A stretch of DNA of 59,853 nt, filler included. It is 8 parts of 8 records of this genome, joined end to end, with 100 filler letters (N's around TTAATTAATTAA, not from the genome) between each part and the next. Parts side by side here need not be neighbours in the genome. Positions count along the whole stretch, not along the records: positions 33,029 to 38,459 come from SRR31156797_26966; 7 more parts are not named here. One strand, written 5' to 3'. A program made the translations under genes and the position numbers. Under the pieces are notes generated by a model, which was not told the origin of the DNA, made no database searches, and saw nothing but the letters and a program-made list of their open reading frames with translations. This document shows, piece by piece, positions 33,142 through 35,940 of the stretch (its first letter is position 1; each line of letters begins with the position of its first letter).

Positions 33142-33984
33142 ATGGAAGAGTTAAAAGAAAGATATATCAATCCGTTTACTGACTTTGGTTTCAAAAGACT
33201 ATTTGGTGAAGAACCTAATAAGGATTTGTTGATTGATTTTCTAAATGAAATACTAAAACACCAACAAGGTCGAATTGTTGATTTGACTTACTTAAAGACT
33301 GAGCAATTAGGAAAAACAGATATTGATAGAAAGGCAATATTTGACTTGTATTGTGAAAATGAAAAAGGAGAGAAATTTATTGTTGAAATGCAGAAGAGCA
33401 AGCAAAACTTCTTTAAAGATAGAAGCGTATATTATTCAACATTTCCAATTCAAGAGCAAGCTCAGAAATCAGATTGGAATTATGAATTAAAAGCAGTTTA
33501 TACAATTGGAATATTAGATTTTGTGTTTGATTCAGACAAAAATGATTCAAACAAATTTCGATATGATGTAAGACTTCAAGATATTGAGACTAATAAAACG
33601 TTCTACGATAAATTGACTTTTATATACTTTGAAATGCCAAAATTCAATAAGTCAATAGATGAATTGGAGAGTCATTTCGACAAATGGTTATATGTTCTTA
33701 AAAATCTTCATAAACTAGACCGATTACCAGAAAAGTTGAAAGAACAGGTTTTCGAGAAAGTATTTGAAGTTGCTGAGATTGCGAAGTTTTCTCGTGAGGA
33801 ATACATGTCATATGAGGACAGTTTAAAGTATTATCGAGATATTAAAAATTCATTAGATACTGCAAAACTAGAAGCCAAAGAAGAAGTTGTGTTGAATTCA
33901 ATAAAAATGGGGTTAGATTCGGAAACAATTTCAAAAATCACAGGGTTATCTATTGAACAGGTTGAAAGAATAAGAAATTACTAA
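33142..33984 (+). CDS. Rpn family PD-(D/E)XK nuclease (recombination-promoting nuclease/putative transposase)
   Basis: YINPFTDFGFKRLFG, IFDLYC...FIVEMQ, DRSVYY, FEMPKF, C-terminal ISKITGLSIEQV. Confidence 0.92.
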   Translation: MEELKERYINPFTDFGFKRLFGEEPNKDLLIDFLNEILKHQQGRIVDLTYLKTEQLGKTDIDRKAIFDLYCENEKGEKFIVEMQKSKQNFFKDRSVYYSTFPIQEQAQKSDWNYELKAVYTIGILDFVFDSDKNDSNKFRYDVRLQDIETNKTFYDKLTFIYFEMPKFNKSIDELESHFDKWLYVLKNLHKLDRLPEKLKEQVFEKVFEVAEIAKFSREEYMSYEDSLKYYRDIKNSLDTAKLEAKEEVVLNSIKMGLDSETISKITGLSIEQVERIRNY

Positions 33985-34118
33985 CCCCAACAAGCCATTA
34001 TAATGAATTGCGCGTGAGGCTGTTCTACGTTGTGAAATTAAGATGTTAAGCAAATCCAATTAACTTTGTGGGGATTCGGAAAAAGCGCAACTCATCATAT
34101 GGCCGATCCGTTAGCTAC
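33982..34118 (+). repeat. attC-like site (integron-cassette-type hairpin)
   Basis: CCCCAAC directly after the stop codon. Arms GCCATTATAATGAATTGCGC (33994-34013) and GCGCAACTCATCATATGGC (34085-34103) pair with one extra base and two mismatches that become G-T pairs on the bottom strand. Ends in GTTAGCT (34110-34116). Confidence 0.65.
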
Positions 34119-34139
34119 AATCACCCCTATTATTCAGGA

Positions 34140-34375
34140 ACACTTGAGTTTCTAAGCTAACGGGCGTACCTTCACCGTTAGAGCTCCTAGACAAGGCCGG
34201 TTTTTGCAATGGTGTTTAAAGTAACCCGAGCGCAATCAAGGTTAAAATGTAAAAGACATATGTGATCATTTATTTATATGTCTTGGGTTTGAGTTTAATG
34301 GTGTTGCAGTATGTATTTATTGTAAACCCGATCGGAATAATATCAAAGCGTAAGAATACATTTCATGGAGCTTTC
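34140..34375 (+). ncRNA. Candidate IS110 bridge RNA (boundaries approximate)
   Basis: Lies downstream of the junction -10 box. Stems CTAACGG/CCGTTAG, AAGACATAT/ATATGTCTT and AGCTCC/GGAGCT. Duplicated module AATGGTGTT...AACCCGA-N4-AAT whose second copy (TCGGAAT) matches the circle junction. Confidence 0.6.
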
Positions 34376-34397
34376 AAAATTATTTAAATGAGAGGTT

Positions 34398-35753
34398 ATG
34401 AAAAAGAAATGCATGAGTTTAGAGGTTGTAAATCCTAATGCCGCAGGTATTGATATTGGTAGTAAAAGTCATTGGGTTGCAGTAGGGCAAGATTCACAGG
34501 ATGTAAAAGAGTTTGGAGTCTACAGTGAGGATCATCAGGCCTTATGCGAGTATTTGCAAGAGAATCAAGTAACCACAATCGCAATGGAAAGCACCGGAAC
34601 CTATTGGCAAAATCTGTTTTCTTCGTTAGTAGGTTATGGTTTCGATGTTATACTTGTAAATGGCAGACAAACCAAGAATGTTCAAGGTAAGAAGACAGAT
34701 ATTAAAGATTGTCAATGGATCCAAAAACTACACAGTTTAGGATTATTAAGTAAAAGCTTTCTTCCGGATAGTACGACAGACGTTATTCGTACTTATTCAA
34801 GACATCGCCAAAATTTACTTAAACAATCTTCCAGAACAGTATTAAAAGTGCAAAAATATTTACGCTTAATGAATCTACGTTTAGATGTTGTAGTTAAGGA
34901 TGTTGTCGGATTAACAGGGACTAAGATCATAAATGACTTTTTAGGTGGGGAAAGATCAGGAAAGGTCTTGGCTCAGAATAGGCATTATAACTGTCGCAAA
35001 AGTGAAGAAGAAATATCAAAAGCACTTCAGTATAATGGACGAGAAGATTACTTATTTGCATTAAAACATGAATGGCGTACCTACTTGCATTTACAACAAC
35101 AAATAAAAGAAGTAGACACAGAGATAAAAACACTTTTAGAAGATATAATTGATAAGGATGATAATAAGAAACAGCATGTTACTGAAGAAAAGAGTCATAA
35201 AAGAAAAAACAAGAATACGATACATGGCGCAGATATGAACCAATTGGCCTATAAGTATTTTGAAGGGATTGATTTAATGGCAATAGAAGGAGTAAATGAT
35301 GCCACTATAATGGCAATTATCAGTGAGGTAGGGTTAGAGGGAATTCGAAAATTTAGTTCAGCAAAACAGTTTTCCTCCTGGCTTCGCTTAGCTCCCAATA
35401 ATAAAATTAGTGGAGGCAGAGTTTTGAGTCAACATTTGCCCAAGGGAAGTAGTCGTTTAAAAATTGCTTTACGAAATGCAGCCAATGCCATTGGAAACTT
35501 AAAAGAAGGCTATTTAGCCGAATTCTTTCATAAACTAAACTATAAAAAAGGTCGAGCAACAGCAGTAAGTGCAACAGCCAGAAAACTATCCGTTATCATA
35601 TGGAATATGTTAGTAAAGGGCGTTGCCTATAATCCTCCAGTTCAATATTTATACCTAGATCAGAAAAGAAAAATGGGTTTAGTTCATAGAATAAAAAAAC
35701 AAATGAATAAATTTGACATCAACCCAGAAGATTTAGGTTTTTCAAATGCTTGA
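34398..35753 (+). CDS. IS110 family transposase/recombinase (DEDD RuvC-like + Tnp20 domain)
   Basis: AAGIDIGS, AMESTGTYW, KKTDIKDC (DEDD); IEGVN...FSSAKQFSSWLRLAP...ISGG; ATARKL. Confidence 0.95.
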   Translation: MKKKCMSLEVVNPNAAGIDIGSKSHWVAVGQDSQDVKEFGVYSEDHQALCEYLQENQVTTIAMESTGTYWQNLFSSLVGYGFDVILVNGRQTKNVQGKKTDIKDCQWIQKLHSLGLLSKSFLPDSTTDVIRTYSRHRQNLLKQSSRTVLKVQKYLRLMNLRLDVVVKDVVGLTGTKIINDFLGGERSGKVLAQNRHYNCRKSEEEISKALQYNGREDYLFALKHEWRTYLHLQQQIKEVDTEIKTLLEDIIDKDDNKKQHVTEEKSHKRKNKNTIHGADMNQLAYKYFEGIDLMAIEGVNDATIMAIISEVGLEGIRKFSSAKQFSSWLRLAPNNKISGGRVLSQHLPKGSSRLKIALRNAANAIGNLKEGYLAEFFHKLNYKKGRATAVSATARKLSVIIWNMLVKGVAYNPPVQYLYLDQKRKMGLVHRIKKQMNKFDINPEDLGFSNA

Positions 35754-35940
35754 TAATCTGAATTATGGGTTTGACGTTAGTCGGAAGGCAAGATGAGCAG
35801 CTTGGTTAATATAAGATGAATTACAATTTGAAAAATAGGATTGAAAATATAGGCTTATTGATTGAAGGTTGGTGCAAGAAAAAAATAGTTTTTGCCACCG
35901 CGCTTCTGCCCTTCGGGACAGTTGGGGTAGCCAACTCACA

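What the first reader, a model, noticed from the sequence alone, without database searches (positions are those of the whole stretch)
34140..34375. Candidate bridge RNA with two duplicated guide modules
Seen: the 277-nt non-coding left end holds two copies of AATGGTGTT...AACCCGA-N4-AAT (34208-34236 and 34297-34338), separated by a perfect 9-bp stem (34253-34284) and enclosed by AGCTCC/GGAGCT. The variable part of module 2, TCGGAAT, equals the predicted donor junction TCGG-AA-T. The variable part of module 1, GCGCAAT, shares only CAA with the local target. A 5' hairpin contains AGCTAACGG (34155-34163), the exact complement of the target flank CCGTTAGCT, and ACAAGGC (34191-34197) equals the reconstructed empty-site junction. 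Known: IS110 bridge RNAs have separate target- and donor-binding loops. Inference: modules 1 and 2 are the target and donor loops of a bridge RNA with a different architecture, possibly with additional recognition of the CGTTAG core.
Basis: partly seen in the sequence, partly recalled or inferred. Interest (0 to 1): 0.8.

Follow-up and report, generated by a model that had tools for sequence, protein, structure and literature searches.

The report
Bridge RNA of an IS110 element
The non-coding left end of this insertion sequence encodes the guide ("bridge") RNA that such elements use to find their own ends and their insertion site; it is a natural variant whose guide segments sit in the opposite order to the well-studied IS621 RNA.

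Summary
The described features are real. They lie in the 277-nt left end of an IS110-family insertion sequence (34121-35786; transposase 34398-35753).

In 119 distinct left ends from 160 related loci the region keeps a covarying RNA fold with two look-alike stem-loop modules.

- **Module 2 is the donor-binding loop.** UCGGAA (34332-34337) equals the last four bases of the right end plus the AA core in 110 of 111 RNA-donor pairs.
  - Of GCGC, only the last two bases plus AA match the left flank.
  - The next bases (UC) match the element's own left end, like a handshake guide.

The guide order is therefore top-strand complement 5' and bottom-strand match 3'. That is the reverse of IS621 and ISEc21. 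It is the order reported for IS1111 seekRNAs, although here the RNA lies upstream of the transposase.

GCUAACG (34156-34162) is exact in 112 of 119 left ends. It is complementary to CGTTAG in the right end and to CGTTR in about 95% of target sites. It could be a third guide, but this is unproven.

ACAAGGC is a coincidence. No expression data were available.

Verdict: a new variant of a known kind.

The parts
34109..34114 (+). CGTTAG in the left target flank (target positions -10 to -5)
   Evidence: Read. In 125 unique insertion sites, -10 to -7 are C110, G113, T115, T119 and -6 is A82/G35.
34119..34120 (+). Left copy of the AA core. The element proper starts at 34121.
   Evidence: Copies within one genome diverge upstream of (C)AATCC and downstream of GGAA. 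A natural RE-AA-LE junction is seen in L089.
34128..34133 (+). TATTAT, a possible -10 box of a junction promoter (inferred only)
   Evidence: Read. It would lie 17 nt from TTGACG (35771-35776) in a circle junction. It was not called in relatives.
34136..34153 (+). 5' stem-loop SL1 (AGGAAC / GUUUCU)
   Evidence: Helix 1: 4 of 6 pairs change on both sides. Also predicted by the single-sequence fold.
34156..34162 (+). GCUAACG, the left copy of a subterminal inverted repeat and a candidate third guide
   Evidence: Exact in 112 of 119 distinct left ends. Complementary to CGTTAG(T/C) in the right end and to CGTTR in targets.
34183..34187 (+). Closing helix P1, 5' strand (pairs with 34367-34371)
   Evidence: 5 of 5 pairs change on both sides; 99.3% of cells are paired.
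34195..34198 (+). Outer stem of the target-binding loop, 5' strand (pairs with 34240-34243)
   Evidence: Helix 3: 97.4% paired, 2 of 4 pairs change on both sides.
34199..34207 (+). [quoted passage not shown]
   Evidence: Mean 4.83 of 8 complementary against 4.26 shuffled, z 6.8, 0 of 2000 shuffles reach it. In this copy 34202-34207 pair with 35788-35793 (6 pairs, one G-U; by reading).
34210..34228 (+). Inner hairpin of module 1 (UGGUG...ACCCG)
   Evidence: Helix 4: 100% paired; the apical pair has CG 29, UA 20, UG 8.
34232..34238 (+). 3' strand of the target-binding loop: GC (left flank -2, -1), AA (core), UCA (handshake-like match to the element's left end)
   Evidence: Identity with the left junction: -2 is 0.70 plus A (wobble-compatible), -1 is 0.86, core 0.92 and 1.00, +1 is 0.90, +2 is 0.98 against 0.80 shuffled. 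RD +2 covaries with 34237 in 98% of 111 pairs.
34245..34252 (+). Long-range helix P2, 5' strand (pairs with 34356-34363)
   Evidence: Helix 5: 98.9% paired, 6 of 8 pairs change on both sides.
34253..34284 (+).
   Evidence: 5 of 5 tested pairs change on both sides. Present in 77 of 119 left ends and missing from 42 of 57 in the more distant clade.
34300..34329 (+). Inner hairpin of module 2
   Evidence: Helix 7: 98.5% paired, 5 of 8 pairs change on both sides.
34332..34338 (+). 3' strand of the donor-binding loop: UCGG (right end -4 to -1), AA (core), U
   Evidence: The 6-mer equals the right end in 110 of 111 RNA-donor pairs. Positions -3, -2, -1 are identical in 100%, 99%, 100%.
34367..34371 (+). 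P1, 3' strand, followed by a U-rich run. Likely 3' end of the RNA near 34376.
   Evidence: The consensus is GGAGCTTTTT. The 3' end itself is inferred.
34398..35753 (+). IS110-family transposase/recombinase, 451 aa
   Evidence: Pfam DEDD_Tnp_IS110 1.2e-23 and Transposase_20 9.9e-11. NCBIfam NF033542 'IS110 family RNA-guided transposase' 3.3e-64.
35771..35786 (+). Right end: TTGACG (-35-like), CGTTAG (35775-35780, right repeat copy), TCGG (35781-35784), AA core (35785-35786)
   Evidence: Read. TTTGACGTTAGTYRGAA is conserved at the right end of relatives.
35787..35795 (+). Right target flank GGCAAGATG
   Evidence: Read. Flanks of copies within one genome differ from here on.

Best explanation
Positions about 34136-34376 (+ strand) encode the bridge RNA (seekRNA) of an IS110-family insertion sequence spanning 34121-35786.

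**Fold.** The RNA forms a 5' stem-loop, a closing helix P1, a stem-loop with an internal loop (module 1, the target-binding loop), a long-range helix P2, an optional hairpin P3, and a second module (module 2, the donor-binding loop).

**Guides shown by covariation with DNA.**
- GC-AA on the 3' strand of module 1 has the sequence of the last two flank bases plus core. It runs on into UC(A), which matches the element's own left end, like a handshake guide.

**Order.** The order within the loop is top-strand complement first and bottom-strand match second. This is the reverse of IS621.

**Inferred from IS621 work.**
- The recombinase binds this RNA.
- It brings the circular RE-AA-LE junction and a target of form CGTTR-N3-R-Y-AA-(right flank) together.
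- It exchanges strands at AA.
- The RNA is made from the circle junction or by read-through.
For: **Protein family.** Pfam and NCBIfam both match.

**Boundaries and core.** They come from copies within one genome and from natural RE-AA-LE junctions.

**Structure** (58 left ends):
- 95.1% of cells are paired, against 84.2% when shuffled.
- 28 pairs change on both sides, against 16.6.
- 0 of 500 shuffles reach any of the measures.
- Slid controls give 26-51% paired.
- Invariant or frequent G-U pairs would be A-C on the other strand (for example UG 58 of 58, GU 48 of 58).
- The plus strand folds at -57.1 kcal/mol and the minus strand at -40.1.

**Donor.** 34333, 34334 and 34335 are identical to right-end positions -3, -2 and -1 in 100%, 99% and 100% of 111 pairs, through C/T/A, A/G and G/T variants. 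The 6-mer is identical in 110 of 111 pairs.

**Target.**
- Identity at -1, core position 1 and RD +2 lies above every shuffle.
- Right-flank complementarity gives z 6.8 overall, and 5.5 and 4.3 within the two clades, with 0 of 2000 shuffles reaching it.
- Examples: UUUCAGC with GCTGAAA in 3 of 4 sites, and UUUUCAAA with TTTGAAAA or TTTGAGAA in 3 of 7.

**Natural retargeting.** L039 and L093 carry UCAG-AA in module 1 and sit next to ...CGTTAGTCAG-AA, the right end of another family member.

**Distant relatives.**
- Chondrinema keeps the same geometry: UAAGGCCA is 8 of 8 complementary to the right flank TGGCCTTA in the copy scanned (L161). The two other copies carry one extra T after the core. 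GTATGGAATG is shared by the right end and module 2.
- Emticicia shares CGTATATAA between the right end and module 2.
Against: - No RNA data could be found, so transcription and both RNA ends are inferred.
- The single-sequence folding z-score is only -1.06.
- The sigma-70 scan found no plus-strand promoter in the integrated copy. It did not call the junction promoter in the natural junction of L089.
- Right-flank complementarity is partial: the mean is 4.8 of 8, and only 38 of 116 sites reach 6 or more.
- In this window the best register is shifted by one base.
- No RNA segment was found that covaries with the element's left end beyond +2 or +3, so the expected fourth guide is missing.
- Insertion sites and elements are related, so the shuffle tests overstate independence.
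Confidence: 0.85

Rival explanations
1. The conserved left end acts only as DNA. The repeated motifs are binding sites for the recombinase, as in classical subterminal repeats, and no guide RNA is involved.
For: - GCTAACG/CGTTAG is an inverted repeat between the two ends.
- IS1111-type elements are defined by such repeats (abstract and passages of PMC11187229; passages of PMC11208160).
- No transcript has been seen.
Against: - Helices keep pairing through G-U intermediates that exist on one strand only.
- The guide positions change base for base with the right end and with flanks at unrelated sites. Fixed protein sites do not predict this.
- The family's NCBIfam model is annotated as an RNA-guided transposase.
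Confidence: 0.04
2. The structure is mainly a leader of the transposase mRNA that controls translation or stability. The matches to the ends are by-products of end sequences being repeated inside the element.
For: - The fold ends 20-25 nt before the start codon, and the RNA may be co-transcribed with the gene.
- A long precursor is discussed for seekRNAs (passage of the Discussion of PMC11187229).
Against: - Complementarity to right flanks that lie outside the element, at 116 different sites, cannot be a by-product of internal repeats.
- The two-module layout matches the known function (passages of PMC11208158).
Confidence: 0.05
3. The RNA is an ordinary IS621-type bridge RNA. The left guides would lie on the 5' strand of each loop, and the reversed order would be an artefact of wrong boundaries or of the wrong strand.
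For: The RNA lies upstream of the recombinase gene, as in the IS110 group (passages of PMC11208160).
Against: - Boundaries are fixed by multi-copy genomes and by natural junctions.
- The strand is fixed by G-U pairs and folding energy.
- With these fixed, the strand of each loop that is identical to the left side plus core is the 3' strand. The strand complementary to the right flank is the 5' strand.
- This is opposite to the statements for IS621 and ISEc21.
Confidence: 0.04

Closest known systems
IS621 bridge RNA (IS110 group; Durrant et al. 2024, PMC11208160; Hiraizumi et al. 2024, PMC11208158; passages read)
   Same: - It is encoded in the left end, upstream of a DEDD/Ser recombinase.
- It has two pseudo-symmetric stem-loops with internal loops, one for the target and one for the donor.
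- A dinucleotide core is included in the guides.
- A short extension matches the non-cognate DNA (handshake).
- Its size is about 150-250 nt.
   Different: [quoted passage not shown] - Here the left-plus-core match is on the 3' strand and is short (2+2 nt and 4+2 nt). [quoted passage not shown]
- The core is AA, not CT.
- There are extra long-range helices P1 and P2.
- No guide for the right donor side was found.
seekRNAs of IS1111-type elements (ISEc11, ISPa11, ISKpn4; Siddiquee et al. 2024, PMC11187229; abstract and passages read)
   Same: - The order of the target matches is the same: the top-strand complement lies 5' of the bottom-strand match.
- There is an inverted repeat between the two ends.
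   Different: - In those elements the RNA lies downstream of the transposase. The repeats are 11-13 bp and lie 7 bp and 3 bp from the termini.
- Here the RNA is upstream and the repeat is 7 bp. The left copy lies 36-42 nt inside the element, within the RNA. The right copy lies 4 nt plus the core from the end.
ISEc21 seekRNA (IS110 type, PMC11187229)
   Same: An upstream non-coding region gives the RNA, which carries matches to both strands of the target.
   Different: In ISEc21 the top-strand match is 3' of the bottom-strand match. Here it is 5'.
Catalogue of 86 bridge-RNA covariance models covering 32,190 loci (bioRxiv 10.64898/2026.10.21.760802; abstract, section 2.4 and methods passages read)
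   Same: It states that many bridge RNA structures deviate from IS621 yet covary with target and donor. This family may well be among them.
   Different: The text I could read does not describe a reversed guide order in left-end RNAs or a distal third segment. Its figures and supplements were not available to me.

Membership tests
IS110-family insertion sequence | DEDD (RuvC-like) domain plus Transposase_20 (Tnp) domain recombinase | tested here: met
   PF01548 1.2e-23 (residues 16-157) and PF02371 9.9e-11 (293-365). NF033542 217 bits against a cut-off of 140.
IS110-family insertion sequence | Site-specific insertion with a short core present once in the circle junction and at both ends of the integrated copy | tested here: met
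   AA is present at both junctions. RE-AA-LE is seen in L089. The right flank starts like the element's own left end in L059, L089 and L125 and in L074. L077 was also flagged by the 5-base test, but its match may be chance.
Bridge RNA (IS621 type) | Structured RNA in the non-coding end with two internal-loop modules | tested here: met
   7 helices, 41 pairs, 95.1% paired, 28 pairs with changes on both sides.
Bridge RNA (IS621 type) | Loop bases covary with the donor (element ends) | tested here: met
   34333-34335 against the right end -3 to -1: 100%, 99%, 100% of 111 pairs. 34237 against the left end +2: 98%.
Bridge RNA (IS621 type) | Loop bases covary with the target flanks | tested here: met
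   Right flank z 6.8, 0 of 2000 shuffles. Left flank -1 and core position 1 lie above all shuffles. L039 and L093 are retargeted.
Bridge RNA (IS621 type) | [quoted passage not shown] | tested here: not met
   The order is reversed in both modules (against the statements read).
Bridge RNA (IS621 type) | The RNA is expressed and bound by the recombinase | not testable with these tools
   No RNA run was listed for the element.
IS1111 group | Long non-coding region and RNA downstream of the transposase | tested here: not met
   The right end is 33 nt and the left end 277 nt.
IS1111 group | Subterminal inverted repeats of 7-17 bp close to both termini | tested here: inconclusive
   A 7-bp repeat GCTAACG/CGTTAG(C/T) exists and is conserved (112 of 119). 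But its left copy lies 36-42 nt inside the element.
IS1111 group | The top-strand complement lies 5' of the bottom-strand match in the RNA | tested here: met
   against the text read.
IS1111 group | The transposase groups with IS1111 in a tree | not tested
   No reference IS1111 or IS621 proteins were at hand. tblastn of the plasmid collection found 534 records at E 1e-5 or better; none of the 60 rows listed bore an IS1111-type name.
Rfam families | Match to a curated covariance model | tested here: not met
   No match in 34121-34397 even at E up to 10. No match to the left ends of 14 and of 8 relatives.

The most novel reading that the evidence does not exclude
GCUAACG (34156-34162) is a third, constant guide segment outside the two loops. 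[quoted passage not shown]

The left half-site of both DNAs would then be read in two pieces: a short bottom-strand guide at the core and a distal top-strand guide. This would explain three things:
- why this family manages with only two flank bases in the loop guide;
- why its targets mimic its own right end;
- what subterminal inverted repeats of IS110/IS1111 elements are for, namely that one copy is RNA and the other is its DNA site.
Probability: 0.35. Interest if true: 0.7.

Novelty: new variant of a known kind. Interest (0 to 1): 0.45.

Why it matters
Bridge recombinases are being developed as programmable tools for inserting, excising and inverting DNA, and nearly all mechanistic knowledge comes from IS621.

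This abundant Bacteroidota family shows that a left-end bridge RNA can carry its guides in the opposite order. Pattern scans found 497 relatives in one genome collection and 550 in one metagenome collection. The RNA uses a very short guide next to the core.

If the conserved GCUAACG proves to be a distal guide, two things follow:
- It would add a third recognition segment to the design rules.
- It would give a function to the subterminal inverted repeats of IS1111-type elements. The seekRNA paper leaves that function open (passages read).

If it does not, this is simply one more natural bridge RNA variant. It is useful as an ortholog, but not a surprise.

Tried and rejected
- **Whole genome.** None is held for the window, and there is no second copy in the window. 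Ends were therefore defined from relatives.
- **Rfam.** Nothing in the left end, the flanks or the relatives. No tRNA.
- **RNA runs.** No RNA holder was listed.
- **Earlier notes of this scan.** None.
- **A guide for the element's left end (RD).** Mutual information found no column beyond 34236-34238. The high values for RD +7 to +9 follow the split between the two clades, which differ by an indel there. GGAGGAU after GCUAACG in some distant members is not conserved. GUUAG in the 5' strand of module 2 is present in only about half of the close clade.
- **Extension of the GCUAACG pairing into the variable neighbours.** Not significant.
- **Inverted repeats in distant relatives as proof of pairing.** Matches of 6-8 nt are reached by 15-32% of shuffles, and unrelated cross-pairs reach 8-9 nt. 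Only the 10-nt repeats of the Citrobacter and Polaromonas elements stand out (1 of 1000 each).
- **Right ends not found.** For Komagataeibacter, Phaeobacter, Paracaedimonas and L188 the right end was not found within 100 nt of the stop codon.
- **Sigma-70 junction promoter.** Not called in L089.
- **Wider target context.** CGTTRNNNRYAA occurs 3 times in the window against 3.1 expected, so the short motif alone does not mark targets.
- **Technical.** A first alignment run timed out and was repeated with faster settings.

Full report
**What is in the sequence.** The two-module pattern AATGGTG...CCCGA-N4-AAT occurs exactly twice in the window, against 0.01 expected. The region is the 277-nt non-coding left end of an insertion sequence. 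Its only gene (34398-35753, 451 aa) carries the two Pfam domains of IS110-family recombinases. It also matches the NCBIfam model named 'IS110 family RNA-guided transposase'. No whole genome is held for the window, and there is no second copy in the window.

**Relatives and boundaries.**
- A profile of 16 homologs found 497 relatives among 535 pattern matches in the species-genome collection, and 550 among 598 in metagenomes. The best 80 of each were returned. They are Bacteroidota elements with 60-83% protein identity.
- Copies within one genome (for example L007-L010) are alike from (C)AATCC... to ...GACGTTAGTCGGAA and differ outside.
- AA is the only sequence shared by both junctions, so it is the core.
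- L089 holds a natural RE-AA-LE junction followed by a full left end. The right flank also starts like the element's own left end in L059, L125 and L074.
- In the window the element is 34121-35786, with AA at 34119-34120 and at 35785-35786.
- I could place the left boundary in 135 of 161 sequences. Ten were dropped for disrupted left ends (L014, L030, L037, L038, L095, L113, L115, L132, L148, L152). Sixteen had under 255 nt upstream. This gave 119 distinct left ends.
- The right end was found by motif in 150 of 161 sequences. Both ends were found in 127, which gave 111 distinct RNA-donor pairs.

**A conserved RNA fold.**
- I aligned 58 of the 62 distinct close-clade left ends. L010 and L022 were left out as near-duplicates, and L042 and L043 for a long insertion.
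- With a 5' stem-loop added, 95.1% of 2,375 cells are paired, against 84.2% in shuffles. Twenty-eight of 41 pairs change on both sides, against 16.6. No shuffle out of 500 reaches any measure. Sliding the partners by 1-3 columns drops pairing to 26-51%.
- Many pairs are G-U, which fixes the plus strand. The plus strand of the window folds at -57.1 kcal/mol and reproduces these helices, while the minus strand reaches only -40.1.
- The single-sequence z-score (-1.06) is not significant on its own.
- The 9-bp hairpin is dispensable: it is absent from 42 of 57 left ends of the more distant clade.

**Module 2 reads the donor.** Right ends vary at -3 (C84, T26, A1), -2 (A65, G46) and -1 (G103, T8). 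Positions 34333, 34334 and 34335 are identical to them in 100%, 99% and 100% of 111 pairs. The whole 6-mer agrees in 110 of 111. [quoted passage not shown]

**Module 1 reads the target, in two parts.**
- In 125 unique insertions the left flank reads CGTTR at -10 to -6, is variable at -5 to -3, has R at -2 (G87, A31) and Y at -1 (C101, T16), and then AA.
- The 3' strand of module 1 (GAGCGCAAUCA) agrees with the left junction only from -2 on. At -4 and -3 the agreement is at chance (0.30 and 0.27). Position -1 (0.86), core position 1 (0.92) and position +2 of the element itself (0.98 against 0.80) exceed every shuffle.
- Lineages with GUCAUUC or GUAAUUC in the RNA have the same change at their left junction.
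- So this strand is flank(-2, -1) plus core, plus a short match to the element's left end. That is the behaviour described for handshake guides in IS621 (passages of PMC11208158).
- L039 and L093 carry UCAG-AA here and sit directly after ...CGTTAGTCAG, the right end of a different family member. In that case all four N4 bases match, so the segment is programmable in principle.
- The 5' strand of module 1 is complementary to the right flank, starting next to the core. The mean is 4.83 of 8 positions against 4.26 in shuffles (z 6.8). Within the two clades z is 5.5 and 4.3, and no shuffle of 2000 reaches the observed value. A same-sense control shows nothing.
- Variants go together: UUUCAGC with GCTGAAA, UUUAAGC with GCTTAAA, UUUUCAAA with TTTGAAAA.
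- A relative with 50% protein identity, in Chondrinema, has UAAGGCCA at the same place. It is 8 of 8 complementary to the right flank TGGCCTTA in L161. The other two copies carry one extra T after the core. All three sit at the end of the same IS3-family sequence.
- In the window, 34202-34207 pair with 35788-35793 (six pairs, one G-U), one base out of the usual register.

**Order of the guides.**
- The seekRNA paper states that ISEc21 (IS110 type) has the bottom-strand match first, whereas IS1111-type RNAs have the top-strand complement first (abstract and passages).
- Here the top-strand complement is first, in an RNA that lies upstream of the gene. The family thus combines the IS110-type location with the IS1111-type order.
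- Read on the opposite strand, the layout mirrors IS621: a long guide on the 5' strand, and core plus two bases plus handshake on the 3' strand.

**GCUAACG.**
- It is exact in 112 of 119 left ends, while its neighbours vary.
- It is complementary to CGTTAG(T) at -10 to -4 of the right end and to CGTTR in targets.
- The tolerated target variants are those that a G or U in the RNA could still pair with: -6 is A82, G35, T3 and -10 is C110, T6. The positions facing C or A are kept in 113-119 of about 120 sites.
- The motif recurs in targets with different wider contexts. It is therefore not just part of one host repeat.
- One relative (L184, 58% identity) has CGTTAC in the right end and GGUAACG in the left end, which is a compensated change.
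- Elements of Citrobacter and Polaromonas plasmids carry 10-nt repeats at the same two places. These repeats have different extensions (AGAAACTCCC/GGGAGTTTCT and AAGAAACAGA/TCTGTTTCTT), and each is reached by 1 of 1000 shuffles.
- L196 and L199 have 7-nt repeats directly 5' of the donor guide match (8 of 500 and 33 of 500 shuffles).

**Evidence against a third guide.**
- L101 has CGTTAC with an unchanged GCUAACG.
- Four left-end variants (L034, L035, L052, L076) face an unchanged right end.
- The bases next to the motif do not covary with the target.
- Repeats of 6-8 nt are common by chance.
- A protein reading CGTTR is not excluded.
- In Chondrinema, where the loop guide for the left flank is 7 nt long, the targets lack the repeat. 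This fits a division of labour but does not prove it.

ACAAGGC is a coincidence. AAGGCC is family-constant, and GGCC pairs with GGUY as the outer stem of module 1. The four insertions of one genome with the same RNA have unrelated right flanks. The first two bases of the module 1 N4 are not used in most members.

**Mechanism, with status.**
- Shown here: the fold, the donor guide, the two target guide segments, the AA core, and the existence of RE-AA-LE junctions.
- Inferred from IS621 and seekRNA work:
  - The RNA is transcribed and bound by the recombinase.
  - Two recombinase dimers hold the two loops with target and donor.
  - Strands are exchanged at the core.
- Inferred from this copy only: a junction promoter made of TTGACG (35771-35776) and TATTAT (34128-34133), 17 nt apart in a circle.
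  - The scan found no plus-strand promoter in the integrated copy, and none at the junction of L089.
  - Bacteroidota promoters differ from the sigma-70 consensus (recalled, not tested).
- Unknown: both RNA ends, and how the element's left end is recognised beyond +3.

**Novelty.**
- Bridge RNAs and seekRNAs have been known since 2024.
- A preprint of October 2026 reports 86 covariance models for 32,190 bridge RNAs. It says that many structures deviate from IS621 (abstract, section 2.4 and methods passages). Its figures and supplements, which may include this family, were not visible to me.
- Searches for 'bridge RNA' with IS110, with STIR and donor, with seekRNA/IS1111, and with Bacteroid showed no paper on this family. 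They also showed none on a reversed order in a left-end RNA, or on a distal guide.
- Rfam 15 has no matching family.
- I file it as a new variant of a known kind.

Noticed in passing
left flanks of many loci, e.g. L088, L084, L107, L009, L104; window 34050-34118: Many insertion sites share a longer context upstream of CGTTR, of the type GTGCTTCGAAATGCGCAACGTTTCATACC...AACGTTR. A second group shares GGTTTTTAGACAGACTGCCGTTA. Both look like repeated or structured host elements. No Rfam family matches them.
   Followed up: partly
window 35823-35897: A 75-nt stretch just right of the element is 92% identical to an unannotated stretch of a Persicobacter replicon (hit H5). There is no tRNA there and no Rfam match. 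It may be a conserved non-coding element.
   Followed up: no
window 33142-33984: The gene to the left of the insertion is a PD-(D/E)XK nuclease family transposase (PF12784, 1e-78).
   Followed up: no
L089 1630-1900; also L059/L060, L125, L074: The right end is followed directly by a left end (RE-AA-LE). This means tandem copies or an assembled circle. In L059 the second left end is diverged.
   Followed up: partly
L039 and L093, left junction: These two elements have UCAG-AA in module 1 and are inserted exactly at the right end of another member of the family. In L093 the flank still encodes the C-terminus of that member's transposase. They are insertion sequences that target the end of a sister element.
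   Followed up: partly
L161, L163, L164 (Chondrinema litorale plasmids): All three copies of a related IS110 element (50% identity to the family) sit at the same place at the end of an IS3-family element. The left flanks differ.
   Followed up: partly
L202: This is a degenerate copy. The left end lacks the 5' stem-loop, GCUAACG and P1, and the transposase match stops at residue 237.
   Followed up: no
window 34157-34181: In this copy CUAACGG pairs with CCGUUAG in a 7-bp hairpin, so the candidate third guide would be masked by a mimic of its DNA site. In relatives the hairpin is only 4-5 bp or absent.
   Followed up: partly
L015 2309-2426: There is a group II intron domain (RF01999, 70.5 bits) on the minus strand, about 300 nt upstream of the element's left boundary in that locus.
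   Followed up: no
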